A stretch of 23,587 nucleotides of DNA, from IMG/VR virus record IMGVR_UViG_2721755149_000018; one strand, given 5' to 3'. Shown here piece after piece: positions 3,335 to 20,547 of this stretch (its first letter is position 1; every line of letters begins with the position of its first letter). The notes below the pieces were generated by a model that saw nothing but the letters and a program-made list of their open reading frames with translations, did no database searches and was not told the origin of the DNA. The translations under genes and the position numbers were made by a program. Source of the DNA: an uncultured virus (IMG/VR IMGVR_UViG_2721755149_000018) (lineage: Duplodnaviria > Heunggongvirae > Uroviricota > Caudoviricetes).

Positions 3335-3352
3335 CTTCGAGGAGTTTCCAGT

Positions 3353-3718: not shown

Positions 3719-3727
3719 GCGGTTCCG

Positions 3728-4069: not shown

Positions 4070-4117
4070 TAGCTGTTTGCGATACACGTTGATTGTTAAC
4101 TGAATAGAGGAGCCTTA

Positions 4118-5487: not shown

Positions 5488-5501
5488 TGACGAGGTGACT
5501 T

Positions 5502-5897: not shown

Positions 5898-5899
5898 GC

Positions 5900-6229
5900 A
5901 TGGGTAATCCGGTGTATGACAGGTCTGCTGCGTTCGACACCGAAAACGAAATGGTGTCACGGTATGCCGAGTTGGCGCGCGTACCTGACGTGATACTGGC
6001 AGGCACCGTCACCCGCAACGCTGATGGCGTGGTCACCACGGCGGATGTGCTGTGGCCCAACGGGGTCGCCGGCGTGTTCACCGCCACGAGCATCAACCCG
6101 ACCCACAAGACTGTGGACGCCTACGAGATCACGTACGGCACTCCACCGAAGTACACGTTCATTCAGCCCACGATAACCCGCAACGGTGGCGGATATGCCA
6201 CCAACATTCCCCCCATCGAGGTGAACTGA
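5900..6229 (+). CDS. Tail-associated protein, paralog 2
   Basis: ATG 2 nt after the upstream TAA. LARVPDVILAGTVTRNADG...WPNG..G.FTA...VDAYEITYG...QPTITRN aligns with 5502-5897. Confidence 0.8.
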   Translation: MGNPVYDRSAAFDTENEMVSRYAELARVPDVILAGTVTRNADGVVTTADVLWPNGVAGVFTATSINPTHKTVDAYEITYGTPPKYTFIQPTITRNGGGYATNIPPIEVN

Positions 6230-6231
6230 CT

Positions 6232-8017: not shown

Positions 8018-8060
8018 CTTTCGGAATGTCACGACGTTAGCCATACATGGGGGGGCTGTA

Positions 8061-9746
8061 GTGGGCGTTTTAGATCCGCCAGGATTACCTCTGGCCTTCG
8101 CGGATGCGCGTTATGTTCGTATGGTTAACGGCGAATCCCCGGACACGAATTGGAATGTTTTCGTGTCCGGGGAGGGCGTTGCCGATTCGAATCTTGCCGA
8201 CATGGTCGTTGCGGGTGAAACGAAAACGGCTCTTGATGCAGTGTACGCGCCAGTGTCGCTGTCTGCCCGGGTTGCCGACATTGCCCCCGATGGGGGTGTG
8301 CGTGCAGTCGGCAAGGGGGATTTGCTGGCGAGCGTGAAAGACTTTGGCGCAATTGGTGACGGAATTACGGACGATGCGCCAGCTTTTGTTGCCGCGTTCA
8401 ACTCCGGTCTTCCGCTGTATGTTCCGCGCGGCGACTATCGCCTTGCTTCAACTATCACTCGCAACTTTTCCGGACTGCACATGGTGGGGCAGAGTGGTGC
8501 TCGCGTATTCTCCGATACTGTAGATCAACTGTTTCGATTTAGTAGTACCGATGGCGTGCACATTGAAAACATTTCTTTCGAATGCGCGGTCGCTGATGCG
8601 GCAAATAGCAACTATGGACTTCTGTCGAGTACTAGTTCACTTAAGAATATACTACTATACCGGTGCGTGTTCACTGCGGCGAACCGTAACACAAACGGCG
8701 TGAAGTTCATTGCAGACAATCTCGCAGAACTGTCGGTAGAGAACGTTTTCGCTAGAGAATGCGTATTCCGAAACATAGGCCGGATGGGAATGGAAATCCA
8801 AGACCATTCCGTAGACCGAACGATTGTGCGGGTAAAAAATGTCGGCGTGATCGACTGCGCCTTCCAGGACTGCGGAACTCTCTCCACAGGCATCGATTTG
8901 TCGTTTAGTGGACATTTATGCGGAGCGGTTGCACGGGGGAACACGCTGATTCGGAGCGCCACCATTGGCGTTGAGTTCGCCGGAGACCACGAGATGCCAG
9001 TCGCGGTAGGCAACACGTTCTCATCAATGGGGCCGTCATGCAACGCAATTTCTTTCACAAACAACTACAACTCGAATCAGGTCATCGGGGCGGTCATCGA
9101 AGGCAACAGGTCCATCGATCGGAGCGGAAGTGGTTCCCGGCTGTGGTATTTATACAATGCCCGCCTGTCTCGAAACTATTTCAAGTTCGCATCCGGGGCG
9201 ATGGTGCTCAGATCCTGCGTGCGAACTGTCGCCTACGGGGAAACGTACGACAGTTCAGGGGCGTACGCATTGTTCATTGAGGGGACTTCAACAGATAACG
9301 TATTCGAGCGGTGCGAGCTAAGGACCGGAACTGGCGCGTTTTCAATATTCCGCGTGAATGGAGCCGACAGTGTTCGGAACTATGTAGTGCGCAGCAATCT
9401 GATCAGATCTGTTGGCGTCACATTCGATCAGATCAACTCGTCCACGCAGAACGCAATCATCCAATGCGATCACGGGTCGACGCGCTGGCAGCCGGTCAAG
9501 ACGATAACGATCGCTGATGCGGATAAGACGATTAATGTGGTGGAAGCCGATTCTGAGGCGCTAATCTTCTCTGGAACGTTGACGGCAGCTCGGACGGTGA
9601 CGTTGCAGAATGCGAAGCGGGCGTATCGGTTGAAGAACAACACCGCTCAGCAAGTGTCGGTAACCACTGGCGGCACTGCGGTGGCGATCGCTGCGGGAGC
9701 CACGAAGATTGTGTATGTGGAGGGAACGACCATCACCGAAGTGTGA
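8061..9746 (+). CDS. Tail spike / polysaccharide depolymerase, pectate-lyase-superfamily right-handed beta-helix
   Basis: SVKDFGAIGDGITDDAPAF..A.....LYVPRGDYRL motif followed by Asn/Cys-rich beta-helix repeats. C-terminal SGTLTAARTVTL...NNT motif of tail fibre ends. Confidence 0.87.
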   Translation: MGVLDPPGLPLAFADARYVRMVNGESPDTNWNVFVSGEGVADSNLADMVVAGETKTALDAVYAPVSLSARVADIAPDGGVRAVGKGDLLASVKDFGAIGDGITDDAPAFVAAFNSGLPLYVPRGDYRLASTITRNFSGLHMVGQSGARVFSDTVDQLFRFSSTDGVHIENISFECAVADAANSNYGLLSSTSSLKNILLYRCVFTAANRNTNGVKFIADNLAELSVENVFARECVFRNIGRMGMEIQDHSVDRTIVRVKNVGVIDCAFQDCGTLSTGIDLSFSGHLCGAVARGNTLIRSATIGVEFAGDHEMPVAVGNTFSSMGPSCNAISFTNNYNSNQVIGAVIEGNRSIDRSGSGSRLWYLYNARLSRNYFKFASGAMVLRSCVRTVAYGETYDSSGAYALFIEGTSTDNVFERCELRTGTGAFSIFRVNGADSVRNYVVRSNLIRSVGVTFDQINSSTQNAIIQCDHGSTRWQPVKTITIADADKTINVVEADSEALIFSGTLTAARTVTLQNAKRAYRLKNNTAQQVSVTTGGTAVAIAAGATKIVYVEGTTITEV

Positions 9747-9755
9747 CAGCCGCGG

Positions 9756-9800
9756 AATCGCCCCGTATGGATACACGAATTTCCATACGGGGCGATTTTT
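9756..9800. terminator. Intrinsic terminator between convergent genes
   Basis: Perfect 16-bp inverted repeat AATCGCCCCGTATGGA (9756-9771) / TCCATACGGGGCGATT (9782-9797), 10-nt loop, T-run on the + strand. Confidence 0.88.
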
Positions 9801-9805
9801 GATGT

Positions 9806-11059
9806 CTATGCGGATTTTGCGTTGCGCCTGGACAGCAGGATGGCGGCGAGTGCAATGATCCCAATAGCAGCTTCGACGAGCAGGACCGCATCCAGCGGTT
9901 GCCGGAACCGTGCCCGAGTGAAGAAAACAGCCATCACAGGCCCGTTCAGTAGGAACAGTGCAAGAAAGAACTTCTCGGATGCCTGCACAGGGATGGCGGC
10001 TCGCCTGGCATACGCAAGCCGGAACAGACAGAGGACGACCACGGCGATGAACGATCCCCACGCAATAAGGGCATGCAGGATACTTCCCGCGTCCACCGCG
10101 GCAGGCGTGTTGTAGGCAGAAAAGTAGTTGACCAGTTTACCCGCATAGAGGGCGGCAGCATCAGCCGGGTGTGTGGCGATCCAGTCTATAGCGGATGATT
10201 GGAAGAATGAGCTGCGGGCAACCTCGTCCTTGCCGAGCGGTTTGGCTGCCTGATAGTAGGTGGACAGGTCCACAGACACACCACTGGCGGGTGTGGCGTT
10301 CGGGTTGTTGCCCAGGAGTAGGTTGATGCCGGATGAGGTGCTGAATGGGATGATAGAACCGAACGCTGCGAGGTTGCGGAGTGTCCACAGCGCAATGGGT
10401 GCGGTGAACGCCGCGCCGGCTACCACAAGGAACCGCAGACGTGCCACATGTTGCCTCCACATCACCCACCAGAGTACGGCAACACTCGTGAAGATCAACG
10501 TGGGTACAGCGAGCGCCATCAACGCGCCGAGCATTCCAAGTCCCGCAGCTTCCGCCCATGCTGCGGGGCGCCCATCGATGCGGGCGGCGAGCAGCCACAT
10601 GCCGAGTACGAGCGCCACCGCAAGTGTTTGCGGATAGAAGGTGCCGGCGGTGAACACATTCAGTGGATAGGCGAGGACGATGAGGCCCGCAACGATGCCG
10701 TATCGGCTTCCGATGAGGCGAACCCCGAGCTTGGCTGCGCACCACCCGGCGGCGATCAGGCACAAGGCGGGGATGATGGCGAGGGCTTTCGCGGGTAGCC
10801 CGATCGCGATGAACGGCACGAACAGGAGCGGCCATGTCGGCGGACGGTAGGCGGTCGGTTGCCCGTCCAGCATATAGCCATCGCCGGATGCGATGCTGTT
10901 TGCGATGGCTAGGTATTCTTGCTCGTCTTCGACGCTGGCGGTTCCTCCGATACTGGAACAGTAGGTTGCGACACCTATGATGGCGAGCCCGATTGCGATT
11001 TGCATGGCTCGGTAGATGGTGTTTTCGATTGCCTGGCGCGACTGGGTTACTGCCCCCAA
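9806..11059 (-). CDS. GT-C fold integral membrane glycosyltransferase (ArnT/PMT_2, GT39/GT83-like)
   Basis: Many hydrophobic helices. DExxY motif in the first loop (EDEQEYLAIANSIASGDGY), TAYRPPTWP, W..RN...FG, RFRQP near the C-terminus. GGAGG RBS 7 nt before the TTG start. Confidence 0.85.
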   Translation of the reverse strand: MGAVTQSRQAIENTIYRAMQIAIGLAIIGVATYCSSIGGTASVEDEQEYLAIANSIASGDGYMLDGQPTAYRPPTWPLLFVPFIAIGLPAKALAIIPALCLIAAGWCAAKLGVRLIGSRYGIVAGLIVLAYPLNVFTAGTFYPQTLAVALVLGMWLLAARIDGRPAAWAEAAGLGMLGALMALAVPTLIFTSVAVLWWVMWRQHVARLRFLVVAGAAFTAPIALWTLRNLAAFGSIIPFSTSSGINLLLGNNPNATPASGVSVDLSTYYQAAKPLGKDEVARSSFFQSSAIDWIATHPADAAALYAGKLVNYFSAYNTPAAVDAGSILHALIAWGSFIAVVVLCLFRLAYARRAAIPVQASEKFFLALFLLNGPVMAVFFTRARFRQPLDAVLLVEAAIGIIALAAILLSRRNAKSA

Positions 11060-11090
11060 GACATTTCCTCCCCTGGATGTTTTACGTTCG

Positions 11091-11129
11091 GCCCCTGCTG
11101 CCCTTGATTATGGGTGGCGGGGGCTTTTT
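11091..11129 (+). terminator. Plus-strand intrinsic terminator
   Basis: GCCCCTGCTGCCC-8nt-GGGTGGCGGGGGC-TTTTT. The stem needs three G-U pairs, so it folds well only on + strand RNA. Confidence 0.7.
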
Positions 11130-11136
11130 GTGCTGT

Positions 11137-11791
11137 CTACGCCTGCGGCAGCGCCCATTCCCACTCGACCGAAGCGACACCATCAGTCCACGTGTAGCCC
11201 ACAACCTCCGAACCCTCCGGGATTGCTACCACGATTTCTTTCGAATACGTGGAGTGCGGCAACAGGTTGGACATGTCTTGGCCGTCCATCTGGGCGCAGG
11301 ACATGGCATCCATGCGGATACCGGATTCGGTGGTGACACGCCCTTCCGAATTGACGGTGTACCAGGAGTACAGGTCGAGGGGTTGCGGGAATGACGGCGG
11401 ATTGTCGAACGTGGTGACGGTGAGGTTGAGGATTGCGAAGCCTGCGCCGGGATCATCGATGGTGATGTACGGGTTGCTGGCGTTGGGGCATTCTGTGGCG
11501 GTAATGCGTTGAATACGGTCGACGGTCATTTGAATGAGTTTCGTGTCGTCTTTGTTGAGGACTCCGAATGGTTCGCCCACGTTTTTGATGATGGCGCCAC
11601 GATTGTTGGTCACCGGGGTTGCGGCAGTCGTCACAGACTGTGTCGCGGCGGGGGTGGCTGTCACCTTCACTAGCGTGGACGCCGGTGCAGCCGCAGAACG
11701 CCCGGCAGTGGCCGGTGGGGGTGCGTCTGCGGTCGTGTCGGTAGTACTGCACGCCCNNNNNNNNNNNNNNNNNNNNNNNNNNNNNNCGCAT
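11137..11791 (-). CDS. Lipoprotein with Thr/Ala/Pro-rich linker and C-terminal Ig-like domain (signal peptide interrupted by N-gap 11757-11786)
   Basis: The 11137-11670 frame extends upstream to ...A-C-S-T-T-D-T-T-A-D-A-P-P-P at the gap edge (lipobox-type Cys). An ATG-CG (Met-Arg) lies at 11791 on the far side of the gap. Confidence 0.75.
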
Positions 11792-11801
11792 CAGAGTGGT
11801 C

Positions 11802-12098
11802 CTAGAGGATGGTGGGTGGATGGTTGCCGAACGTGCCATATGGGTCGCCGTGTAGGTACGCATCGTGTTGCGCATCAGCCCGAGCAGCAATCACGGCATG
11901 CTCCCGGCGGACAGCCTCGCGGCGCTGCATGAAGGTGGCGAGCGGCCACCAATACACGACAGTGACGAGCATGAGGGTGGCGAGCCCGAACACCGCGGCC
12001 CCGAACTCGCCCGCCACAATCAACTGGACGAGTACCACAGTGAAGAACACTGCGACCGGGGCAAGCAAAATCCGCGCCGCCCCCAATACCCCCCTCAT
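11802..12098 (-). CDS. Small two-TM membrane protein (actinophage family ending RADxQHxxYLxGDxxGxFGxxPP)
   Basis: GGGGAGG RBS before ATG 12098. Two hydrophobic helices and a recognisable C-terminal motif. The ORF-track start at 12434 is unlikely because it overlaps the integrase. Confidence 0.8.
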   Translation of the reverse strand: MRGVLGAARILLAPVAVFFTVVLVQLIVAGEFGAAVFGLATLMLVTVVYWWPLATFMQRREAVRREHAVIAARADAQHDAYLHGDPYGTFGNHPPTIL

Positions 12099-12256
12099 GC
12101 CGCCTCCCCGCGTTCGGTGTCTGTTATGTCCAGCGCAGCATAAACCGAAACCCGACAAGTTGCATAGACCCAAACCCGCCGTGTGGGTACAAACAACAAT
12201 GGCAGATCGCCCCCGTACTCTAGCGGCAAAACCCGCCTGACCAGCGCAAATAAACA

Positions 12257-12300
12257 GAGTCCAAGTCAGGTCACCTTGTGACGTAACCCGACTTGAACCC
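12257..12300. other. Candidate attP for the serine integrase
   Basis: 44-bp imperfect palindrome GAGTCCAAGTCAGGTCAC-CTTGTGAC-GTAACCCGACTTGAACCC (18-bp arms, 14/18 matched) centred on GT at 12278-12279, 14 bp upstream of the integrase start. Confidence 0.7.
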
Positions 12301-12301
12301 G

Positions 12302-12307
12302 TATAGT
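12302..12307 (+). promoter_or_regulatory. -10 element of a leaderless integrase promoter
   Basis: TATAGT lies 7 nt before the GTG start at 12315. No Shine-Dalgarno sequence. Confidence 0.6.
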
Positions 12308-12314
12308 CACCCAC

Positions 12315-13685
12315 GTGAAAACAGCCGTCTACACCCGCATCAGCTTCGACCGAAAGAACACCGGCGCAGGAGTCGACCGGCAACTCGAAGGATGCGAAAA
12401 CCTCGCCAAAGAACTCGGCTGGACCATCCTCCACACCTTCTCCGACAACGACATCTCCGCCTACTCAGGCAAGGTTCGCCCCGGCTTCGAAGCGCTCATC
12501 CACGCCATGAAAACCGGGCAGATCGAAGCACTCATCTGCTGGCACCCCGACAGGCTCTACCGGCACATGAAAGACCTCGAACGCATCATCGACATCGCAG
12601 ACTCCCAACACGTAGAGATCCGATCCGTCCAAGGCGGCACCATCGACCTATCCACGGCATCGGGCCGCATGGTGGCCCGCATCCTCGGCTCGGTGGCGCG
12701 GCAGGAGTCGGAGCATGCGGGGGAGCGCCGAAGGTTCGCGAACGACCAGCGGGCCGCGCAAGGGGTGTTCTACACGAGTGGTCCACGCACGTTCGGGTAC
12801 ACCCAGAAGGGTGAGCCGATGCCAGGCGAGGCGGAAGCTGTAGCGAAGGCGGCAGAGGACATCTTGTTCGGTAAGTCGATTCGTGCGGTGGCGCGGGAAT
12901 GGAATGAGCAGGGTTTCCGGACGACACGTAAACAGAGGGCGTGGACGGGCACTGCGGTGCGTGGAACGATTGTGAATCCACGTTATGCGGGTATTCATGT
13001 GCATCGCGGCAAGGTGATCGGGCGTGGCGATTGGGTGCCGTTGATCAGTGAGGACACTCACTATAGTTTGGTGGCTTTGATGGAGGATAATAAGCCGTCG
13101 TCTGATCGTTCGTTTGAACGTCAGTTTCAGGGTTCTGGTGTGTATTTGTGTGGGGTGTGTGGCACGCCGCTTTACCAGTTTTCCGGCGGGAAGCGTGAGG
13201 CCCGGTCTTATAAGTGCCCTAAGTATCATGTGGGTCGTAGTGTTGAAAAGTTGGATGATTATGTTTCGCGGCTGGTGGTTGGGTATTTGTCGCGTCCGGA
13301 TGCTCCGAATGTGGTGGATGTTGAGGAGCCGACGGTTGATTTGGCGGCTTTGAGGATTAAGCGTGATGCGTTGCAGGCTAAGTTGAAGTCTTTGACTGAG
13401 ATGTTCACGGATGACCATATCGACAAGGATCAGTTTTTGTCGGGGACTGCGGATGTGCGTGAAAAAATTGCGGCGTTGGATGCGCAGATGGTGGTGATCA
13501 ATAAGGCGTCTCCGGTGACGTATTTGTTGTCGCAGCGGGATCGGGTCGGGGAGGCGTGGGAGGAGTTGTCGCCGGATATTCGCGGGAAGGCGATTCAGGC
13601 GTTGATGACGGTTCGGGTGTTGCGGATGGCCCGGAAGTCTCCTCGGTTCAATCCGGATGATGTGGAGGTTCGCTGGCTGCTGTAG
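12315..13685 (+). CDS. int: Large serine recombinase (serine integrase)
   Basis: VYTRIS catalytic Ser10, DNDISA, RPGF, DRLYR. Recombinase domain (FGY...W....V...NPRYAG), zinc ribbon CGVCG..YKC, coiled coil. Confidence 0.97.
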   Translation: MKTAVYTRISFDRKNTGAGVDRQLEGCENLAKELGWTILHTFSDNDISAYSGKVRPGFEALIHAMKTGQIEALICWHPDRLYRHMKDLERIIDIADSQHVEIRSVQGGTIDLSTASGRMVARILGSVARQESEHAGERRRFANDQRAAQGVFYTSGPRTFGYTQKGEPMPGEAEAVAKAAEDILFGKSIRAVAREWNEQGFRTTRKQRAWTGTAVRGTIVNPRYAGIHVHRGKVIGRGDWVPLISEDTHYSLVALMEDNKPSSDRSFERQFQGSGVYLCGVCGTPLYQFSGGKREARSYKCPKYHVGRSVEKLDDYVSRLVVGYLSRPDAPNVVDVEEPTVDLAALRIKRDALQAKLKSLTEMFTDDHIDKDQFLSGTADVREKIAALDAQMVVINKASPVTYLLSQRDRVGEAWEELSPDIRGKAIQALMTVRVLRMARKSPRFNPDDVEVRWLL

Positions 13686-13737
13686 CGGGGTGTGGCCGCA
13701 CCTGCGCGACGTGTTGTTTAAACCGGTACTGATGTTT

Positions 13738-13743
13738 TAGTAT
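13738..13743 (+). promoter_or_regulatory. -10 element of a leaderless promoter for the RDF/HNH-fusion operon
   Basis: TAGTAT lies 6 nt before ATG 13750. TTGTTT at 13714-13719 is 18 nt upstream. AT-rich spacer. Confidence 0.55.
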
Positions 13744-13749
13744 GGGTGC

Positions 13750-13923
13750 ATGACTAGTGGTGATGAGCGGGCTGCGGTTGCGGTGGCGGAGTTGGATGAG
13801 CGGGTGCGTCGGATGGTGGAGGCTGCGCCGGCGTGGACTGATGTGAAGCGTGAGCGGATTTTGGCGTTGTTCGCTGCGGATCGGTCGAGCCGGGTTGTGG
13901 ACAGCGATGAGGCTGCGGCATGA
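13750..13923 (+). CDS. Putative recombination directionality factor (phiRv1 Rv1584c-like), 57 aa, absent from ORF track
   Basis: MTSGDERAAVAVAELDERVRRMVEAAPAWTDVKRERILALFAADRSSRVVDSDEAAA. The core resembles the AAPPLTxEQRxRLAxLL motif of phiRv1-type RDFs. Directly follows the serine integrase and has an ATGA overlap with the next gene. Confidence 0.75.
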   Translation: MTSGDERAAVAVAELDERVRRMVEAAPAWTDVKRERILALFAADRSSRVVDSDEAAA

Positions 13924-15335
13924 GCGCGCGAGAAGCACTTCCGTCGCACGTCGCCATTGCTGAGCATTGGCTGGAGCATCAAGCTCCCAATTCTGGGATG
14001 GTCCCCGACATCAACCGACCCGCTTGCATGGCGTGCGGATGGTTCCCACGTAAGAATGTCTCAAGGTCGATCCACAAGGCTTGGAGTCAGGCCGGGCTAG
14101 AGCGGTGCCATATCATTCCCCATGCGCTTGGGGGGAGCGCTGACCCGGCCAACCTTGTCTTGATGTGCAGGGAGTGCCATGTCGACTCACCGGATGTAGC
14201 TGACCGCGAGTTCATGCTCGAATGGATAGCCAGGCGAGAAGATGGAACCTACTTCACGCGCTGTCATCGCGAGCTTGACAGGCACCCCGAGTATCTAAAC
14301 CTTCTGGCTGGCGTTCATGAAGGCGACATCAACTTGGCCGTCGACTACGCAGGATCGTATGTTCTGTCGAGTTCTGTATCGCACAGTGGAGCCATTTCGC
14401 CTGGAACATACGCAGCGTCTGCGATAGTTGGTCTACGCAAGGCGTCCTCTGTGGATGCTGCTACCGTCCATCGCCTCGTTGAAGTAGGTGAGCTAGATCG
14501 GCAGTTCAAAGCTGCGCTCGACGTTGTACTGGCAGAGAGAGATGCGGAGCGTATTACCGCTGCCGCTATCAAGTCGCATCGCAGAAGTGCAGAGGTCGGC
14601 GCGATCCGTGGTCGTCCGCCGTACGGCTACAGGGACATAAGGGATCGAACGGGAAAGATCACAGAGAGGGTCAAGGATCAGGCATCCTCTAGGAACATTG
14701 AAGAGATTGCGCAGCGCCTCCTAAGTGGTGAGCCCCTGCCTAGAGTCGTTGACGACTTCAATAGGCGCAAGATTGCTGCGCCAGGTACGTCGAAGGCTTG
14801 GACGAGGATGATTGCGGACAGGCTGCTTCGCGTTCCGCACTATGCAGGATTGCGTGTGCATCGCGGCGAGGTTGTCGGTGTTGGGTCGTGGCAGCCAATC
14901 TTTACGCCGGAGGATCGGGATCGACTGATTTCCATTCTCGACTCGCTGACTCGAAGTGGTGCCGAGAAGTACCTACTGTCTGGGATTGCTGTATGCAGCG
15001 TATGTGGGTCGACTGTTGTCGGCGTGAAATCGAAGTACACATCGTACGCCTGCTCAAGCGGGAGTCGTTGTGTGAAGCGCAGCGAAGATTTCGCCAACTC
15101 TGTCGTAGAGGACGCTATAGTGCATCGGCTTGACGATGCGCCAAAGTCGTATCTTGGCGGTCTTTCAACTCGGGCGGCATGGGAGTCCGGGTCCGCGTCT
15201 TTGCTGGATAGGCGCGCCATTGGGAGGGACTTAGTTGAGTCAATCACGATCATGCCGGTTGGGCGTGGGCGTATCCAGTGCAAGGATCGGGATGCAATCC
15301 GCGTAGTCCTCCGTTCGAAGGAGGTTGCGTCGTGA
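13920..15335 (+). CDS. HNH endonuclease fused to serine-integrase recombinase and zinc-ribbon DNA-binding domains (no serine catalytic domain)
   Basis: N-terminus: C36xxC39...ERCH64IIPHALGGSADPAN78LVLMC83REC86H87. C-terminus from ~aa 231: GRPPYGY...W......L..PHYAGLRVHRGEVVG.G.W.PI...YLLSGIAVCSVCG...YAC. Confidence 0.88.
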   Translation: MSAREALPSHVAIAEHWLEHQAPNSGMVPDINRPACMACGWFPRKNVSRSIHKAWSQAGLERCHIIPHALGGSADPANLVLMCRECHVDSPDVADREFMLEWIARREDGTYFTRCHRELDRHPEYLNLLAGVHEGDINLAVDYAGSYVLSSSVSHSGAISPGTYAASAIVGLRKASSVDAATVHRLVEVGELDRQFKAALDVVLAERDAERITAAAIKSHRRSAEVGAIRGRPPYGYRDIRDRTGKITERVKDQASSRNIEEIAQRLLSGEPLPRVVDDFNRRKIAAPGTSKAWTRMIADRLLRVPHYAGLRVHRGEVVGVGSWQPIFTPEDRDRLISILDSLTRSGAEKYLLSGIAVCSVCGSTVVGVKSKYTSYACSSGSRCVKRSEDFANSVVEDAIVHRLDDAPKSYLGGLSTRAAWESGSASLLDRRAIGRDLVESITIMPVGRGRIQCKDRDAIRVVLRSKEVAS

Positions 15336-15793
15336 GCGCCCCGAAGCGGTTTCTGGTGACGTACCGTCTGGAGGATTGGCGTCTGCGGGTGCGGATTCAC
15401 CACAACGACGGCACTTATCTGGGGGAAACCCACACCAAGCATCGTGATGTTTCGTTGGTGCGTGGGTTGGCTGAGTCCTACCTCAACTTCTACTTCAACG
15501 ACACGCATGAGCGTGCGGTGACGGTGTTCGGGTCTCGCATCACCGCGCCGAAGCGGAAGTCGCCGAAGGTGCCGGCGCGGGTGGTTGATCCGCGGGTGGA
15601 GGCGAACCGTCGTCGGGGGTGTCCGACTCCGGAGAAGGCGGCGTTTCGGTGTCGGGTGGATGCGGAGCGGGCGTTGGTGCATGCGTGGGCGCATCGTGAG
15701 CGGGGCGGGTATGTGCCGGTACGCGTGTACTCGGATTGTCGATGCAAAATGTGGCATCTGACTTCACGCTCCGAGTGGAGCAATGCCGCCTAG
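15332..15793 (+). CDS. Phage hypothetical protein with C-terminal Cys/His motif
   Basis: GGAGG RBS and GTGA overlap. C-terminal CPTPEK..F....A.....RVY..C.C..WHLTS motif common in actinophage small proteins. Confidence 0.75.
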   Translation: MSAPKRFLVTYRLEDWRLRVRIHHNDGTYLGETHTKHRDVSLVRGLAESYLNFYFNDTHERAVTVFGSRITAPKRKSPKVPARVVDPRVEANRRRGCPTPEKAAFRCRVDAERALVHAWAHRERGGYVPVRVYSDCRCKMWHLTSRSEWSNAA

Positions 15794-15817
15794 TTAATCT
15801 ATTCGGCATCACCATGT

Positions 15818-15856
15818 AGCCGCCGCTGTGCACGCTGATCGTGCATGGCGGCGGCT
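15818..15856 (+). terminator. Strong hairpin, likely terminator of the serine-integrase/HNH operon
   Basis: 17-bp stem AGCCGCCGCTGTGCACG / CGTGCATGGCGGCGGCT (two G-U pairs), 5-nt loop, 24 nt after the stop. Weak U-tract. Confidence 0.65.
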
Positions 15857-16189
15857 TCCGTGTAGGTTGACCAAAACCGCATTTAGATGCACTAGCGGAT
15901 TAACTAGCGCGTTCCCGGTTTGGTGCGTACTGGTATTATTGCAGGTGGGAGCGTTTTGCGCCTGTAGGTGGCATGTAATGCTTACAGTTTCGATGACTGG
16001 AAGCAATCCGGTGACGTGCGGAAACGACTCCACAAACACCCCCAAATCTGGCCGGATCTGGCTTCTATGGGTTGAGTGAAAGATTCACCGGATGCACCTG
16101 TTCCTGCATGCCGGAAACGTGGGTGGTGGACGCCCGCCCGCAAACTGATACATTCCTGCGTTCCACGACAACTACACAGCGGAGACGAC

Positions 16190-17404
16190 ATGGCTGCACG
16201 ACGCGACAACGGAGACGGCTCACTGTTCTGGAGCGAGAGCCGCAAGTTATTCATCGGGGCGATCTACCTGCCCAACGGCAAACGCAAACAGGTCACATCC
16301 AAAGACAAGGCTGCCTGCAAGGCGAAGCTGGACGCCCTCAAAGCGAACATCGCCGACGGGCTCGACCCGCACTCCGATCAAGTCACCGTCGCCACGTGGT
16401 GCAAGCACTGGCTGGAATCCCTGGCCCCGAAAACCGGCCGCCCGAACACGCTCGCCAACTACCGCGCCGCGGTCAACACCTACATTGTGCCGGCGATCGG
16501 CCGCACCAAACTCCACGACTTGAAGCCGCATCATGTGCGGGAGGTGCACGACGCGGTGGCGGCTGCGGGCCGATCATCGGGGACGGCGTTGAATACGCAT
16601 TGGGCGTTGTCGGCGGCGTTGGGTGCTGCGGTGGCGGAGGAGATGATGGTTCGCAATCCGTGCGATCGGGTGAAGGCCCCGAAGGTGACGCGGGAGAGGC
16701 GGGGCGCGCTCACTGTCGAGCAGGCTCAGCGTCTTCTGTCCACGTGCATGGAACGTGATGATCCGATGGTGTCGCGGTGGGCGGCGGCGTTGATGTTGGG
16801 GGCGCGGCAGGGTGAGCTGTTGGGGTTGACGTGGGATCGGGTGGACCTCGACAAGCGCACAGCGAATCTGGAGTGGGCATTGGATCGGCTGCCGATGGTC
16901 CATGGGTGTGGTGGGTCGTGTGGCGCTAAGTGGGCGTCCCGGTGTCCTCGGGCGGTGTTCGATGTGGAGGAGTGGTTCGAGTACATCCCGTTGTACAAGA
17001 ATTTGGCGTTGGTTGATCCGAAGTCGGATCGGTCCCGGCGTGTGGTGCCGATCCCTGCTCCGCTGGCGGCGCTGCTGGAGGAGCATCGGGAGCGCTCACC
17101 TGAGAACCGTCACGGTTTGGTGTGGGCAACGGACGAGGGTGAGCCGATCGATCCGGGCGCGGATTTGCGGGCGTGGAAGTCTGCGGTGCAGCGGGCCGGG
17201 TTGCCTCCGGTGGTGTTGCATGAGGCGCGGCATTCCACGGCGAGCATTCTATTGGAGTCGGGCGTGGATCAGGGTGTGATCATGGCGGTGCTCGGGCACT
17301 CGTCCATCATCACGACGCGCGGGTACACGCATGCTAGCGACAAGTTAGCGCGGGCTGCGTTGAGCAATCTGGATGTGTTGTTGGAGGAGGTGTCGGAGGG
17401 GTAA
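16190..17404 (+). CDS. int: Tyrosine integrase
   Basis: GGAG RBS before ATG 16190 (MAARRDNGDGSLF, typical arm-binding N-terminus). Catalytic set R (GARQGELLGL), K (PKS), HxxR (LHEARH), H (LGHS), Y (RGYTH). Cys-rich insertion HGCGGSCG....RCP. Confidence 0.96.
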   Translation: MAARRDNGDGSLFWSESRKLFIGAIYLPNGKRKQVTSKDKAACKAKLDALKANIADGLDPHSDQVTVATWCKHWLESLAPKTGRPNTLANYRAAVNTYIVPAIGRTKLHDLKPHHVREVHDAVAAAGRSSGTALNTHWALSAALGAAVAEEMMVRNPCDRVKAPKVTRERRGALTVEQAQRLLSTCMERDDPMVSRWAAALMLGARQGELLGLTWDRVDLDKRTANLEWALDRLPMVHGCGGSCGAKWASRCPRAVFDVEEWFEYIPLYKNLALVDPKSDRSRRVVPIPAPLAALLEEHRERSPENRHGLVWATDEGEPIDPGADLRAWKSAVQRAGLPPVVLHEARHSTASILLESGVDQGVIMAVLGHSSIITTRGYTHASDKLARAALSNLDVLLEEVSEG

Positions 17405-17781
17405 CGGTTCGCTTGGGTGTTCGAGTGCCGGGGTGGTGCGCCAGGGTGGCGTGCTGCCCCGGTTTTGTTCGTTGTGCGGCGGCTGCTGGCTCTTGTGGTT
17501 GCTCGCCGGGTTGTGTCAGGTGTAGGCAATTCCAGCTTCCCTGGGGTGCGGTTCGGGGGTGTGTGGTTGTGCGCTACCGAATATGAATGATGCTCGTTTA
17601 CCACGGGATTTGGGGGTTAGGGTTGGCTTTGTTGTGGTGTTTGGTTCATGAAAGCCAACTTGCATGTAACACGTTGGAAATAGATACTTTTGTCCTGTTT
17701 GACTGGTATCGACAAGGACTAAAGTCCACTACCCGCCGGTAAGATGTTTGAACTGGTGAAACATACGTAACGTCCAGTTTC

Positions 17782-17803
17782 TGTCGGGGATACACGCTAT
17801 GAT
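17782..17803 (+). promoter_or_regulatory. PafBC-dependent (RecA-NDp-type) DNA-damage promoter
   Basis: TGTCGG-GGATACACGC-TATGAT matches the TGTCGG-N10-TA-N3-T consensus exactly. Confidence 0.8.
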
Positions 17804-17815
17804 CAACGAGTCAAC

Positions 17816-17831
17816 TCGAACACCTGTTCGA
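17816..17831. promoter_or_regulatory. LexA (SOS) box
   Basis: TCGAAC-ACCT-GTTCGA, an exact actinobacterial consensus TCGAAC-N4-GTTCGA, 12 nt downstream of the -10. Confidence 0.88.
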
Positions 17832-17862
17832 ACACTACGAGCCTACGGGGGCCACAGACATC

Positions 17863-18327
17863 ATGAGCAAGACCCAGCGATTCCGCGCCAAGCACATCGA
17901 CCAGCACACCCTCGCCAACTGGTCCGTCTTGGGCATCACCATGCACCACCCCACCGGAACCGCCGTCTACTGGCACAACGACGACTGCCAGACCCTCATG
18001 AAAGACATCGGTTTGATCCGCGTCAACGAAGATCGCAGCATCGACCTCCACCCATTCGCGCCCGCCACCACCGACGACCTCAACGTGCTCCGCGGCGCCG
18101 GCATGGAAGCCGCCCAGAACGAACCCTCCAAAGCAACCGCCTGGACCAAGCACAAGTCCAAGACAGGCGTCTACTGGACGTGCGTGATCTCCGTGCCGCT
18201 CGACTGCAACGACGAAGTGGCGGTCGCTGTCCGCAGCCACCAGGCGAAAGAACTCACCGTGCACGAGTCCTTCACCAAGAAGACACGGATGGCGACCGCC
18301 ACCGACGAAACTATGGAAACCCTGTAG
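17863..18327 (+). CDS. Hypothetical protein, predicted DNA-damage inducible
   Basis: 154-aa ORF with strong GC3 codon bias and GGGGG RBS-like element, downstream of the PafBC and LexA sites. No family recognised. Confidence 0.8.
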   Translation: MSKTQRFRAKHIDQHTLANWSVLGITMHHPTGTAVYWHNDDCQTLMKDIGLIRVNEDRSIDLHPFAPATTDDLNVLRGAGMEAAQNEPSKATAWTKHKSKTGVYWTCVISVPLDCNDEVAVAVRSHQAKELTVHESFTKKTRMATATDETMETL

Positions 18328-18768
18328 TCAGCCGACGCGAGTAGGGCGGCGGAGCACGAGGGATTCCGCCGCCTCCTCCGTCGCAGCAGCCGTCAACCGA
18401 GCATGCTCAGTCAGATCCCGAATGAACGAATCCACCATCTTCTGCTGACGCGCCGTCAAATACGCGGCCTCCGGGGGAAGCTCATACAGCTTCTCGCTGA
18501 TCGTCCCATTCAACCCAGCCCACTTCGCAATCAGCGACGGCTTCTTCCCCAACGCCTGCGCCACCTTATGAATCACATGCGGCTCCGGCCCCGTCTTCGT
18601 GTACTCACCGTGAATCAGCCGGCGCACCGTCACCGGAGCCAACCCCGTCGCCCGCGCTAGCCCGTTCATCGACGGCTCACCGAACTTGTCCAGCATCTCG
18701 CGGTTGCCGGTTTGCTTCATCGCCACAGCCCACTTCTCAGGGATGCTGCGCTCAATCTTCTCGATCAT
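18328..18768 (-). CDS. HTH DNA-binding protein, immunity-repressor-like
   Basis: HTH SMNGLARATGLAPVTVRRLIHG...KVAQALG. C-terminal YELPPEAAYLTARQQKMVDSFIR resembles actinophage repressor C-termini. ATGA overlap with the upstream repressor. Confidence 0.85.
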   Translation of the reverse strand: MIEKIERSIPEKWAVAMKQTGNREMLDKFGEPSMNGLARATGLAPVTVRRLIHGEYTKTGPEPHVIHKVAQALGKKPSLIAKWAGLNGTISEKLYELPPEAAYLTARQQKMVDSFIRDLTEHARLTAAATEEAAESLVLRRPTRVG

Positions 18769-19193
18769 GACTTGCTCCTCTTGGACTGTGTACGGGTGGT
18801 TTTTGTTGTCTTGCGGGTAGCAACCGTTGACCTAGCTGGCTTCTTCACTGGTTCCGGCTGCGGGCTTGGTCTGCGTTTCTGGGCTCTGCGTAACAGCTCT
18901 TGCAGTAGCTCTTCATCTGTTCGTTCTTCTATGGGTGTGGCGTTACGTTCCGCCTCCCATTCGTCTTGGGTGAGATACCCCGCGGCCACCAGGGCTTCCA
19001 GGACGCTGGTGCCGAGGGCTTCCGCGACGGCCCGAATGATTTGTTTGTCGCGGGGTGCGACTCCACCGTTCCGCCATTGCGACATTCCTCCACGGTTGAG
19101 GCCGATGGTGTCTGCGAGGTGGGACTGGTTGAGACCATTCCTTTCGAGTCCTTCCTCGATGTACTGCCACCAGGCGGTCGTTGTTGTCGTCAT
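18765..19193 (-). CDS. XRE-family HTH immunity repressor
   Basis: WWQYI...NQSHLADTIGLNRGGMSQWRNG...AEALG.SVLEALVAAGYLT..E, the common actinophage repressor pattern. Confidence 0.9.
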   Translation of the reverse strand: MTTTTTAWWQYIEEGLERNGLNQSHLADTIGLNRGGMSQWRNGGVAPRDKQIIRAVAEALGTSVLEALVAAGYLTQDEWEAERNATPIEERTDEELLQELLRRAQKRRPSPQPEPVKKPARSTVATRKTTKTTRTQSKRSKS

Positions 19194-19200
19194 GCCGTGG

Positions 19201-19206
19201 ATTGTA
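19201..19206 (-). promoter_or_regulatory. -10 element of a leaderless repressor promoter
   Basis: TACAAT on the minus strand 7 nt before ATG 19193. No Shine-Dalgarno sequence. Confidence 0.7.
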
Positions 19207-19229
19207 CTGCCAAGTATTCGCGGCTTACT

Positions 19230-19246
19230 ACTGTTGAGTCAACAGT
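19230..19246. promoter_or_regulatory. Palindromic operator candidate
   Basis: ACTGTTGA-G-TCAACAGT, perfect 8-bp arms, upstream of the repressor promoter. Confidence 0.65.
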
Positions 19247-19394
19247 TCCGGGTAGGTAGTTGTACTCATTTGTGCTGCTCGGTTGGTATCTAGGGCTATC
19301 TAAGCACGTCATACCGTCTGTACGCAACACACCTGTGTGGAACGCGCTAGGGCCTTTAGTCCCCGTTTACCGTCCACGTTCCCGGCGCGATCCA

Positions 19395-19459
19395 CCTGTA
19401 CCCACACCCTGACGGGTGCAAACATGCGCATTCACCAGCGAAGTAGCCTGTACCCACAC
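19395..19459 (+). repeat. 13-bp direct repeat CCTGTACCCACAC x2
   Basis: Copies at 19395-19407 and 19447-19459. The 11-bp core also occurs inverted at 12181-12191. Confidence 0.8.
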
Positions 19460-19465
19460 GACCGG

Positions 19466-19494
19466 TTGACCACGACCACATCCGCGTGTAGGTT
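19466..19494 (+). promoter_or_regulatory. SigA-type early lytic promoter
   Basis: TTGACC-N17-TAGGTT upstream of the first early gene. Confidence 0.7.
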
Positions 19495-19530
19495 TGGTTT
19501 ATCCAACCAACACCACATGTAGGGGTCACC

Positions 19531-19629
19531 ATGAAACAGCACACCAGGGCGCAACGCGCCGTCGACATCTTCGCCATCCTCTGCCTCCTCGCCGTCGTGT
19601 GCATCCCCATAGTGGGGGTGTACGCATGA
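19531..19629 (+). CDS. 32-aa single-pass membrane peptide, absent from ORF track
   Basis: AGGGG RBS. MKQHTRAQRAVDIFAILCLLAVVCIPIVGVYA. ATGA overlap with the exonuclease. Confidence 0.7.
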   Translation: MKQHTRAQRAVDIFAILCLLAVVCIPIVGVYA

Positions 19630-20534
19630 TGCTCACCGGCCGCAAACTCGAAACCCCCATCACCCCCGGCAGCATCGAACACCTGTCGGTACTCTCCGCG
19701 TCGAAAATGCCGCAGCTCATGAACCTTTGCCCACCCGACTGGGGCGACGAATTCACCCTGTGGCACGAGATGCGGCACAAGCGGCAACTGTCCAAACCAT
19801 CCGATGCCATGACCCGCGGTCACGAGTTCGAGCCCATGATCCGTGACTGGTTCCAACGCGACCACCCAGCTTTGCGGGTCGAAACCTCGTCCACGTGGGC
19901 GCATCTGGAACGCCCCTGGCAGACCGCCGACCCCGACGGCGAAGTGTGGCACGACGACGGCACCCTGGAACTCCTGGAGGTCAAGACCGCCTCCGATATG
20001 AGGGACTGGGGGCAGCCCGGAACCGACGAAATCCCCGACCACTACTACGCGCAAACCCAGTGGCAGCTCGACACGATCGGTGCCCGCCGCGTCCATGTCG
20101 CCGTGTGTGGGCCGTTCGAGTTGTTCGACCGGAAACCCCGCTACTACATCGTGGACTATGACCCGGAGTATGCGCGGGTGTTGCGGGAGAAGGGGTTGCG
20201 GTTCATGCAGTCCCTGGAGTTGGACGCTGAACCTGTGCGCCGCAACACCACCGACAAAGCCATGCTCGCCGTCCGCTGGAAGAACACCACGATCACCGAC
20301 GACCCTGGGTTGGAGATCCCCGACGAGATCGCCGAACCCTACCTCGCCACCCGCGGCGACTGCCCCACATGCGCCGAAGCGAAAGATGCGGCCGCAACCC
20401 TGTTGGAGTACATGGGCACGGCGAAGAAAGCCACCTATCGGGGTGTGACGATCGCGAACCGCGTGAATGGTCGCGCCGGCGCACCACCAATGCTGCGAGC
20501 CGCCAAGGGCCTCGCACTCAAAACCACCGCATAG
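19626..20534 (+). CDS. YqaJ/lambda-exonuclease family (RecE-like) exonuclease
   Basis: LSASK, RGHEFEP, ADPDG, LLEVKT, YYAQTQWQL motifs. Start set at the ATGA overlap. Confidence 0.93.
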   Translation: MMLTGRKLETPITPGSIEHLSVLSASKMPQLMNLCPPDWGDEFTLWHEMRHKRQLSKPSDAMTRGHEFEPMIRDWFQRDHPALRVETSSTWAHLERPWQTADPDGEVWHDDGTLELLEVKTASDMRDWGQPGTDEIPDHYYAQTQWQLDTIGARRVHVAVCGPFELFDRKPRYYIVDYDPEYARVLREKGLRFMQSLELDAEPVRRNTTDKAMLAVRWKNTTITDDPGLEIPDEIAEPYLATRGDCPTCAEAKDAAATLLEYMGTAKKATYRGVTIANRVNGRAGAPPMLRAAKGLALKTTA

Positions 20535-20547
20535 AAAGGCAACCGTC

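What the first reader, a model, noticed from the sequence alone, without database searches (positions are those of the whole stretch)
13920..15335. HNH nuclease grafted onto serine-integrase DNA-binding domains: candidate att-site-targeted nuclease
Seen: an intact-looking Zn-HNH domain (CxxC...H64...N78...CxxCH) replaces the serine catalytic domain. It is followed by an alphaE-like helix, a recombinase domain and a zinc ribbon homologous to the neighbouring integrase (PHYAGLRVHRGEVVGVGSWQPI vs PRYAGIHVHRGKVIGRGDWVPL; SGIAVCSVCG vs SGVYLCGVCG). The integrase's coiled coil between the zinc ribbon and the C-terminal W...R motif is absent. Established: in large serine recombinases these two domains read the att half-site and the coiled coil mediates synapsis. 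Inference: the protein binds a long att-like sequence, cannot recombine, and instead nicks or cuts. Possible roles are destroying the attP/attL/attR of competing elements, homing of the cassette, or controlling its own att site. I do not recognise this architecture as a described family. It is translationally coupled behind the RDF, and its codon usage looks different from its neighbours.
Basis: partly seen in the sequence, partly recalled or inferred. Interest (0 to 1): 0.93.

Follow-up and report, generated by a model that had tools for sequence, protein, structure and literature searches.

The report
HNH nuclease fused to serine-integrase DNA-binding domains
A temperate phage carries an intact gene that joins a small DNA-cutting enzyme to the DNA-gripping part of an integrase, but it occurs in only one narrow phage lineage and its activity and target are untested.

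Summary
ORF 13920-15335 (+, 471 aa) has an intact zinc-HNH module (res 1-~180), then the alphaE helix, recombinase domain, zinc ribbon and C-terminal tail of a large serine recombinase (LSR). It has no Resolvase catalytic domain. About 70 residues of coiled coil are missing as one clean in-frame gap.

Independent assemblies carry the same continuous ORF, so it is not an assembly artefact. It is not a family: among 1.84 billion representative proteins the only full-length match is a 99% identical one. The N half is a complete member of a stand-alone phage HNH family (~165-290 aa). That family sits in many different genome positions, as free-standing homing endonucleases do. The C half is closest to LSRs elsewhere (40%), not to the neighbouring integrase (28%).

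The gene fills one slot of a translationally coupled operon behind an active serine integrase. In two other studies' contigs that slot holds 408 unrelated bases between the same boundaries.

My best reading (about 0.5) is a mobile, homing-endonuclease-like nuclease retargeted by an LSR DNA-binding module. The main rival (about 0.3) is a recent, neutral fusion. Cleavage, DNA binding and the target are all inferred.

The parts
13920..15335 (+). Whole chimeric ORF, 471 aa plus stop
   Evidence: The same continuous ORF is in G001, in contigs of runs X3 and X5 and in six cluster members.
13920..14243 (+). Zinc-HNH (His-Me finger) nuclease module, res 1-108. Zn ligands C36, C39, C83, C86. Catalytic H64, N78, H87.
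   Evidence: Pfam HNH_5 and HNH. Invariant columns of the family alignment A2. Profile hits to the HNH of IscB and of McrA. AF2 model mean pLDDT 82.6. Weak fold matches, all to HNH nucleases.
14244..14450 (+). Helical subdomain shared with the stand-alone HNH family, res 109-177. Fold not identified.
   Evidence: P0053 (207 aa) aligns to res 1-182. Alignment A2. Helices in the AF2 model. No match above generic helical bundles.
14445..14489 (+). Fusion junction, about res 176-190: the HNH-family sequence ends and the LSR sequence begins
   Evidence: N-half hits end at res 182 and LSR hits start at res 185-198. Alignments. Contigs of X3 and X5 run across it.
14484..14597 (+). alphaE-derived long helix, res ~189-226
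   Evidence: Aligned to the alphaE of 7 LSRs. Helix at 4-41 of the C-half AF2 model.
14610..14954 (+). Recombinase domain (RD), res ~231-345
   Evidence: Pfam PF07508. PHROG 95. Foldseek matches to 28 LSR chains at E<=1e-3.
14967..15143 (+). Zinc ribbon domain, res ~350-408, with four Cys (C359, C362, C378, C384)
   Evidence: Pfam PF13408 at 25.1 bits, cut-off 25.3. C359, C362 and C378 are invariant in A3. Fold matches.
15144..15164 (+). Short linker (res 409-415) standing where the ~70-residue coiled coil lies in LSRs
   Evidence: 16 residues between L404 and W421, against 80-94 in 28 of 28 LSRs
15165..15332 (+). C-terminal LSR tail, res 416-471, with W421 and the ...VVLR ending as in P0052
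13750..13923 (+). Upstream 57-aa ORF. Its stop overlaps the fusion's start (ATGA). Function unknown.
   Evidence: No family hit.
15332..15793 (+). Downstream 153-aa ORF. GTG start overlaps the fusion's stop (GTGA). AAGGAGG lies 7 nt upstream. PHROG 3424, function unknown.
12315..13685 (+). Intact large serine integrase (Resolvase + Recombinase + zinc ribbon + coiled coil), head of the same-strand gene row
12257..12300 (.). attP of the neighbouring serine integrase: imperfect inverted repeat with the crossover at about 12278-12281
   Evidence: Contigs of X6 and X10 switch to unrelated DNA at 12278/12281. The G001 provirus record ends at window 12098 and begins at 12315.

Best explanation
The ORF is a real, intact chimeric gene. 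A complete free-standing phage HNH endonuclease (res 1-~180) is joined in frame to the DNA-binding two-thirds of a large serine recombinase: alphaE, recombinase domain, zinc ribbon and C-terminal tail.

The two LSR parts needed for recombination are gone. The serine catalytic domain is missing, and so is the coiled coil that mediates synapsis and directionality.

Most likely it is a site-directed HNH nuclease or nickase of the modular homing-endonuclease kind. In this reading the LSR-derived domains bind a long, att-like half-site. That site belongs to its lost parent integrase, not to the neighbouring one. The HNH module then cuts nearby.

The gene behaves as an exchangeable cassette in a translationally coupled operon (orf57 - X - orf153) behind the phage's active serine integrase.

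Shown: the architecture, the intact catalytic and zinc residues, continuity of the ORF in independent assemblies, the exact-boundary replacement polymorphism, and the homing-endonuclease-like placement of the HNH family.

Inferred: DNA binding, cleavage, the target, and homing.
For: Architecture:
- Domains by Pfam and PHROGs.
- The C-half model (pLDDT 89.9) matches 28 LSR chains at E<=1e-3, including PhiC31, Bxb1, A118/LI and SPbeta integrases.
- The HNH half keeps all 11 invariant and 7 near-invariant columns of its family.
- The LSR half keeps all 7 invariant and 11 near-invariant columns of a 29-sequence LSR alignment.

Two clean in-frame losses at domain borders:
- The catalytic domain is missing. 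Full-length LSRs in the alignment have 107-124 residues ahead of the aligned part.
- The coiled coil is missing: 16 residues against 80-94 in 28 of 28 LSRs.
- An engineered deltaCC LI integrase (delta 342-416) bound attP and attB with wild-type affinity (PMC3783163, section 13 read). The natural deletion should therefore spare DNA binding.

Not an artefact:
- G001 has the same ORF.
- One X5 contig from another study spans 12132-16100, and an X3 contig spans 13967-15675.
- Six cluster members come from several sources.

Cassette behaviour:
- In X6, one contig joins 13924 to 15326 through 408 other letters. X10 has loose ends at the same two places. The integrase stretch 12278-13506 differs at 1 position in the X6 contig.
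- Start and stop codons overlap on both sides of the gene.
- Window 12315-15546 differs from G001 at 4 positions. Differences resume at 15547, with 85 in the 1326-nt tyrosine integrase gene. The aligned DNA left of attP is 78% identical.
- GC3 is about 0.60 in both halves, below the neighbours.

The HNH family looks like free-standing homing endonucleases:
- 138 relatives were found in viral contigs, with open frames of median 202 aa.
- In 17 loci examined of 79, they sit beside ribonucleotide reductase, DNA polymerase, terminase subunits, portal, thymidylate synthase, or other homing endonucleases.
Against: - No activity, binding or expression data exist.
- Among the best 150 of 5579 hits in 1.84 billion representatives, only a 99% identical protein is full length. 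All six cluster members are at least 98.7% identical. There is no sign of a diversified, long-selected family.
- All 7 variable residues lie in the LSR half.
- Both nucleotide differences from G001 inside the gene are non-synonymous, while the two in the integrase gene are synonymous. The numbers are far too small for a test.
- The LSR half has the second-longest terminal branch of 29 (1.02 against a median of 0.68).
- One cluster member (P0203, 373 aa) starts at M99 and lacks the HNH core. Its DNA was not seen.
- The geometry is open. In serine recombinases the N-terminal end of alphaE lies away from the DNA (recalled). The model does not say where the HNH would reach.
- No target site could be named.
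Confidence: 0.5

Rival explanations
1. A recent, selectively neutral fusion. A free-standing HNH gene landed in or beside a second, redundant serine-integrase gene. A deletion then joined them in frame. The product does nothing useful and is carried along with the integration module until it decays.
For: - It is a single narrow lineage.
- All 7 amino-acid variants lie in the LSR half.
- 2 of 2 nucleotide differences from G001 are non-synonymous, against 0 of 2 in the integrase gene.
- Its terminal branch is on the long side.
- P0203 lacks the HNH core.
- The phage has two other intact integrases, so a third is dispensable.
- Stand-alone members of this HNH family are direct same-strand neighbours of serine recombinase genes in 4 of 79 viral loci. 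The raw material for such a fusion therefore exists.
- Cassette-minus modules are viable.
Against: - Two separate in-frame losses both fall exactly at domain borders.
- 471 codons are open in every DNA copy seen: the window, G001, X3 and X5.
- Every family-invariant residue of both halves is kept.
- Translational coupling on both sides places it in an operon.
- It is found in at least three studies' assemblies.
Confidence: 0.3
2. A DNA-binding factor that does not need to cut. The LSR-derived domains occupy an att-like site. This could block integration or excision by another phage's integrase, or regulate the operon. The HNH part would serve only as a scaffold or an occasional nickase.
For: - The DNA-binding domains are kept while catalysis and synapsis parts are removed.
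- The gene sits in the integrase operon.
- Earlier notes of this scan describe small archaeal proteins with a dead HNH joined to a recombinase domain, read there as DNA-binding factors. These are unchecked leads.
Against: - All HNH catalytic and zinc residues are intact, which is not expected if cutting were dispensable.
- The DNA-binding half is only 28% identical to the neighbouring integrase, so it should not read that integrase's sites.
Confidence: 0.12
3. An assembly chimera or a mis-called frame: two genes joined by an assembler or read through a sequencing error.
For: None found.
Against: - Identical architecture appears in G001.
- Contigs of X3, and of X5 from a different study, cross the junction.
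- Cluster members come from NCBI, JGI, ENA and Logan sources.
- Only contigs could be laid, not raw reads.
Confidence: 0.01

Closest known systems
Large serine recombinases / phage serine integrases (Bxb1 gp35, A118/LI integrase 4KIS, PhiC31 Int, SPbeta SprA)
   Same: alphaE helix, recombinase domain, four-Cys zinc ribbon and C-terminal tail. phmmer hits to LSRs reach down to 1e-49. The family profile hits Bxb1 9iu2, SPbeta 9dxh and A118 4kis. Fold matches.
   Different: There is no Resolvase catalytic domain and no serine nucleophile. There is no coiled coil. It therefore cannot recombine or synapse and is not an integrase.
Free-standing modular phage homing endonucleases (HNH type such as I-HmuI and T4 Mob proteins; architecture as in I-TevI: nuclease, linker, DNA-binding module). 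Names are recalled.
   Same: An N-terminal small nuclease followed by a separate DNA-binding module. The HNH half's family sits between conserved phage genes and beside other homing endonucleases. The gene shows presence or replacement polymorphism at fixed boundaries.
   Different: The DNA-binding module is LSR-derived, which I found described nowhere. Cleavage of a cassette-less allele is not shown. There was no sequence match to cultured-phage genomes for the HNH half.
Stand-alone HNH family represented by P0053 (207 aa) and about 138 viral-contig relatives
   Same: The whole N half, res 1-182, aligns at 45% identity to P0053. All invariant residues are shared.
   Different: Those proteins end where the fusion continues into LSR sequence. 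None of the 79 viral loci carries a fused form.
Engineered deltaCC LI integrase (PMC3783163)
   Same: The coiled coil is removed while the zinc ribbon is kept. The engineered protein still bound attP and attB with wild-type affinity.
   Different: That mutant keeps its catalytic domain and still recombines promiscuously within one molecule. Here the catalytic domain is replaced by HNH.
HNH domains of IscB/Cas9 and of McrA
   Same: These are the closest solved HNH cores by profile: 9k2z at 1.1e-4 and 6ghc at 5.3e-4. NCBIfam IscB scores 22.7 bits, far below its cut-off of 175.
   Different: No RuvC domain, no guide RNA context and no modification-reading domain. Only the ~40-residue core is alike.

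Membership tests
Large serine recombinase (serine integrase) | N-terminal Resolvase catalytic domain (PF00239) with the serine nucleophile | tested here: not met
   No PF00239 hit at E<=0.1, while the neighbouring integrase scores 105 bits. LSR alignments start at the fusion's res 185-198.
Large serine recombinase (serine integrase) | alphaE helix, recombinase domain and zinc ribbon domain | tested here: met
Large serine recombinase (serine integrase) | Coiled-coil motif inserted in the zinc ribbon domain | tested here: not met
   16 residues between L404 and W421, against 80-94 in 28 of 28 LSRs
HNH / His-Me finger nuclease | beta-beta-alpha-metal core with catalytic His, Asn and His, plus a CxxC...CxxC zinc site | tested here: met
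   Pfam HNH_5 and HNH above their cut-offs. H64, N78, H87, C36, C39, C83 and C86 fall on conserved columns. Strands 61-64 and 79-82 and helix 84-89 in the model.
HNH / His-Me finger nuclease | Metal-dependent DNA cleavage | not testable with these tools
   Needs a biochemical assay
Free-standing homing endonuclease | Gene present in some and absent or replaced in other otherwise near-identical genomes, at fixed boundaries | tested here: met
   In X6 and X10 the stretch 13924-15326 is replaced by 408 other letters, while the integrase is near identical
Free-standing homing endonuclease | Relatives scattered between conserved genes at many genome positions | tested here: met
   Shown for the HNH half's family in 17 loci examined of 79. 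Not shown for the fused form, which has one position only.
Free-standing homing endonuclease | Cleaves the endonuclease-less allele and is copied into it | not testable with these tools
   The 408-letter allele could not be read beyond two 30-letter ends.
   No hit in Pfam, PHROGs, NCBIfam or PADLOC. RDFs are diverse, so absence of a hit does not exclude one.

The most novel reading that the evidence does not exclude
This may be a natural att-site-directed nuclease. On this reading, a selfish HNH endonuclease captured the long-site DNA-reading module of a serine integrase. It now cuts an att-like sequence, either to home its cassette into rival integration modules or to destroy the attachment sites of competing phages that use the parent integrase.

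The link may be wider than this one gene. Stand-alone members of the same HNH family are direct same-strand neighbours of serine recombinase genes in 4 of 79 viral loci. Two divergent contigs among them carry a conserved pair: a short recombinase lacking its zinc ribbon, followed at once by the HNH gene. The fused gene would then be the Rosetta-stone form of a partnership between this HNH family and serine-recombinase DNA-binding domains.
Probability: 0.2. Interest if true: 0.8.

Novelty: new variant of a known kind. Interest (0 to 1): 0.55.

Why it matters
Serine-integrase DNA-binding domains read 40-50 bp sites and are much used in genome engineering. If this protein works as proposed, it shows that nature has re-used that module to aim a nuclease. 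That would add a new DNA-targeting domain to the homing-endonuclease repertoire and a ready-made scaffold for long-site nickases.

It would also show a way for phages to fight over integration modules. If the gene is instead a neutral fusion, it is still a clear snapshot of how modular nucleases arise: a free-standing endonuclease gene sits beside an integrase gene, and two in-frame deletions follow.

Tried and rejected
Searches that found nothing or nothing new:
- Scans of genome contigs with the fusion and with the integrase found no relative.
- Megablast of 11800-16100 against GenBank phages gave no match.
- tblastn of the HNH half against the same collection gave no match.
- tblastn of the whole protein gave 110 records, all ordinary serine integrases covering res ~185-405.
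- Viral-contig scans with the integrase, the tyrosine integrase, orf171 and P0053 returned only G001.
- The metagenome contig L092 is 100% identical to window 11787-19682, so it is not independent.
- PADLOC gave nothing for the fusion. NCBIfam gave only far sub-threshold hits.
- Single-sequence phmmer against PDB gave nothing significant.
- The helical subdomain (res 109-194) gave only generic helical matches with Z below 6.
- ESM Atlas feature hits stayed at 0.85 or below, so they are leads only.
- No RNA holder is listed.

Tools or steps that failed:
- The window's own assembly is not held.
- A combined alignment of both halves (A4) placed LSR fragments over the HNH half. I did not use it and folded the two halves separately.

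Ideas considered and set aside:
- The fusion reads the neighbour's attP. This is unlikely at 28% identity.
- L021 and L031 as direct ancestors. Their LSRs are too distant.
- The entry 'phiRv1 integrase' under HNH group 1 in Table 1 of PMC5714182 (passages read). As I recall it, phiRv1 integrates into REP13E12 elements whose ORFs carry HNH domains. That is not a fusion.
Full report
**What is there**

The window is a temperate phage genome segment, in this order:
- endolysin and holin (410-1764);
- minor tail proteins and a pectate-lyase-like tail spike (2123-9746);
- three minus-strand genes;
- a serine integrase (12315-13685);
- a 57-aa ORF (13750-13923);
- the ORF in question (13920-15335);
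- a 153-aa ORF (15332-15793);
- a tyrosine integrase (16076-17404);
- two repressor-like genes;
- a YqaJ/RecT pair;
- a replication initiator.

The ORF is 471 codons long. Pfam finds HNH_5 and HNH at res 57-98, Recombinase at 259-333 and the recombinase zinc ribbon at 352-401. The zinc ribbon scores 25.1 bits against a cut-off of 25.3. There is no Resolvase domain, while the neighbouring integrase scores 105 bits for it. PHROG 95 (integrase) covers res 198-409 at 1.8e-34.

**The two halves**

An exhaustive phmmer search of 1.84 billion representative proteins gave 5579 hits. Among the best 150, only one is full length, P0001 at 99% identity. The others match one half or the other:
- res 1-~180 matches stand-alone proteins of about 147-230 aa, the best being P0053 (207 aa, 45%, res 1-182);
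- res ~185-408 matches ordinary large serine recombinases (LSRs) from their alphaE helix onward, the best being P0052 (40%).

*N half.* It is a complete member of its family. In a 16-sequence alignment the invariant columns are W17, C36, C39, W55, L60, H64, C83, C86, H87, P91 and W102. The near-invariant columns are A14, D30, P34, G71, G72, N78 and L81. The fusion has all of them. The closest solved HNH cores by profile are those of IscB and McrA. The AF2 model (pLDDT 82.6) gives only weak fold matches, all to HNH nucleases. The helical part, res 109-194, matches nothing specific.

*C half.* It folds with pLDDT 89.9 and matches 28 LSR chains at E<=1e-3, including PhiC31, Bxb1, A118/LI and SPbeta integrases. 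It keeps all 7 invariant and 11 near-invariant columns of a 29-sequence LSR alignment.

*What is missing from the LSR.* Full-length LSRs in that alignment have 107-124 residues (the catalytic domain) ahead of the point where the fusion's LSR part begins. Between the invariant L404 and W421 the fusion has 16 residues, where 28 of 28 LSRs have 80-94. The coiled coil is therefore missing as one clean in-frame gap, and the C-terminal tail resumes in register.

In the LI integrase, an engineered deletion of the coiled coil (residues 342-416) left attP and attB binding at wild-type affinity. Removing the zinc ribbon weakened binding about 25-fold (PMC3783163, abstract and section 13 read). The natural protein thus keeps what binds DNA and lacks what cuts, rejoins and synapses.

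The neighbouring integrase is only 28% identical over 139 aa, so the two are not recent duplicates.

**Is it real?**

The same continuous ORF is in the IMG/VR provirus record G001. It is also in six members of one 90% cluster drawn from NCBI, JGI, ENA and Logan sources. Contigs of public runs carry it too: an X3 contig spans 13967-15675 without a difference, and one X5 contig from another study spans 12132-16100 with 28 differences, one of them inside the gene. Only contigs could be laid, not raw reads. An assembly chimera is very unlikely.

**Context: an active integration module and a variable slot**

G001 is permuted relative to the window. Window 1-12098 matches its end and window 12315 onward matches its start. 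Contigs of X6 and X10 leave the window for unrelated DNA at 12278 and 12281, in the middle of the inverted repeat 12257-12300. That repeat is therefore the attP of the neighbouring serine integrase, and that integrase is active. The window shows the unintegrated arrangement.

The 57-aa ORF, the fusion and the 153-aa ORF are linked by overlapping stop and start codons: ATGA at 13920 and GTGA at 15332. An AAGGAGG motif lies ahead of the GTGA.

In X6, one contig joins 13924 to 15326 through 408 other letters. X10 has loose ends at the same two places. So the fusion gene, almost to the base, is replaced by a different short segment. The X6 contig over 12278-13506 of the integrase gene differs at 1 position. 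The immediate flanks differ at 29 positions over 13537-13924 and 22 over 15326-15699.

Against G001, window 12315-15546 differs at 4 positions. Differences resume at 15547, with 85 in the 1326-nt tyrosine integrase gene. The aligned DNA left of attP is 78% identical. The integrase, orf57 and the fusion thus travel as a recently shared block, and the fusion's slot is exchangeable.

The fusion has the lowest GC3 (0.60) and the lowest codon-fit score of 18 genes measured. Both halves are alike (0.595 and 0.601), which fits arrival as an already fused unit.

**What the HNH family does elsewhere**

A viral-contig scan found 138 relatives of the HNH half, and 80 loci were kept, 79 of them not the window's own record. 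Their open frames have a median of about 202 aa, and none continues into LSR sequence.

I examined the neighbours in 17 of these loci (42 proteins). The gene sits beside ribonucleotide reductase, DnaB helicase, thymidylate synthase, DNA polymerase, UvsX, SbcCD, small and large terminase, portal, Holliday-junction resolvases, or other HNH and GIY-YIG homing endonucleases. That is the pattern of free-standing homing endonucleases.

An HMM of the LSR alignment found a serine recombinase gene in 4 of the 79 loci. In all four it is the direct same-strand neighbour:
- In L021 and L031 the HNH gene lies just upstream of a full LSR.
- In L034 and L041 a short recombinase lies just upstream of the HNH gene. 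It has Resolvase plus Recombinase domains but no zinc ribbon, and is 257 and 254 aa. Its stop and the HNH start are adjacent or overlapping.

The two short recombinases are 28% identical and the two HNH proteins 45%. The LSRs of L021 and L031 are too distant to be the fusion's parents. The arrangement still shows that the raw material for such a fusion recurs, and it hints at a link between this HNH family and serine recombinase genes.

**How it most likely works**

My best reading, at a probability of about 0.5, is a modular homing-endonuclease-type enzyme:
- The LSR-derived recombinase domain and zinc ribbon bind a long att-like half-site of the lost parent integrase.
- The alphaE-derived helix acts as a linker.
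- The HNH module nicks or cuts nearby.
- The gene spreads, or is kept, as a selfish cassette in the integrase operon.

Every functional step here is inference. Where the HNH reaches on the DNA is also open.

**Evidence pointing the other way**

- The protein exists in one lineage at 98.7% identity or more.
- All 7 variable residues are in the LSR half.
- The two nucleotide differences from G001 inside the gene are both non-synonymous (D398G, G435V), while the two in the integrase gene are synonymous. The numbers are too small to test.
- The LSR half has the second-longest terminal branch of 29.
- One cluster member, P0203, starts at M99 and would lack the HNH core.

A recent neutral fusion therefore remains a serious rival, at about 0.3. 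Against that rival:
- there are two separate in-frame losses exactly at domain borders;
- the frame is intact in every copy seen;
- all conserved residues are kept;
- the gene is coupled to its neighbours in an operon.

A non-cutting DNA-binding role gets about 0.12, and the intact catalytic residues count against it.

**Comparison with what is known**

The protein is not an integrase. It fails two defining features: the catalytic domain and the coiled coil. It meets the sequence definition of an HNH nuclease. It resembles free-standing homing endonucleases in family behaviour and in its replacement polymorphism, but cleavage of a cassette-less allele is untested.

Four full-text searches found no described natural fusion of an HNH nuclease to LSR DNA-binding domains. 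Two earlier notes of this scan describe small archaeal proteins with a dead HNH joined to a recombinase domain. I did not test them. They suggest that HNH plus recombinase-domain combinations arise more than once.

**Verdict**

I class this as a new variant of a known kind, a modular HNH endonuclease with a new DNA-binding module. It is seen in a single phage lineage, and its function is unproven.

Noticed in passing
window 12257-12300 (crossover about 12278-12281): This is the attP of the neighbouring serine integrase. Contigs of runs X6 and X10 switch to unrelated DNA here. The G001 provirus record ends and starts on either side of it. The window is in the unintegrated arrangement. The host-side loose end reads like the FWSDQYD motif of ferredoxin-reductase-type flavoproteins; that motif is recalled and was not tested.
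   Followed up: partly
window 13924-15326 versus runs X6 and X10: An alternative allele of 408 letters fills the fusion's slot. From the 30-letter loose end, it starts at the same ATG. The rest of its sequence could not be read.
   Followed up: partly
L034 3802-5170 and L041 2604-4044: A conserved gene pair in two divergent low-GC viral contigs. A short serine recombinase (Resolvase + Recombinase domains, no zinc ribbon, 257 and 254 aa) is directly followed by a member of the same HNH family. In L021 and L031 the HNH gene lies directly upstream of a full LSR. That makes 4 of 79 loci.
   Followed up: partly
window 16076-17404: A second integrase of the tyrosine type in the same phage. It is under purifying selection against G001 (dN/dS 0.08). 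A 17-nt inverted repeat at 15818-15856 lies just upstream.
   Followed up: no
window 15332-15793: The downstream ORF probably starts at GTG 15332 (153 aa) behind an AAGGAGG motif, not at 15278 as the mechanical ORF list gives. It matches PHROG 3424, function unknown.
   Followed up: partly
window 12315-15546 versus flanks: Mosaic divergence from G001. There are 4 mismatches in about 3.2 kb over the integrase, orf57 and the fusion. Differences resume at 15547 to the right, and the aligned DNA left of attP is 78% identical. Window 6287-11125 has no match in G001 at all.
   Followed up: yes
window 8061-9746: A tail spike with a pectate-lyase-like domain. It has the lowest GC of the window (0.54) and lies in the part with no match in G001, so it looks like a swapped receptor-binding module.
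   Followed up: no
window 19359-20549 (-) versus 19494-20534 (+): The minus-strand 397-aa ORF has dN/dS 0.92 and a stop in G001. The plus-strand ORF over the same DNA is a YqaJ exonuclease next to RecT, so the plus-strand gene is the real one.
   Followed up: partly
window 1790-1801, 6470-6498, 11757-11786: Three short runs of N (masked or unresolved bases).
   Followed up: no
protein P0203 (cluster of P0001): A 373-aa member of the fusion's cluster starts at M99 and so lacks the HNH core. This could be a truncated copy or a different gene call.
   Followed up: no
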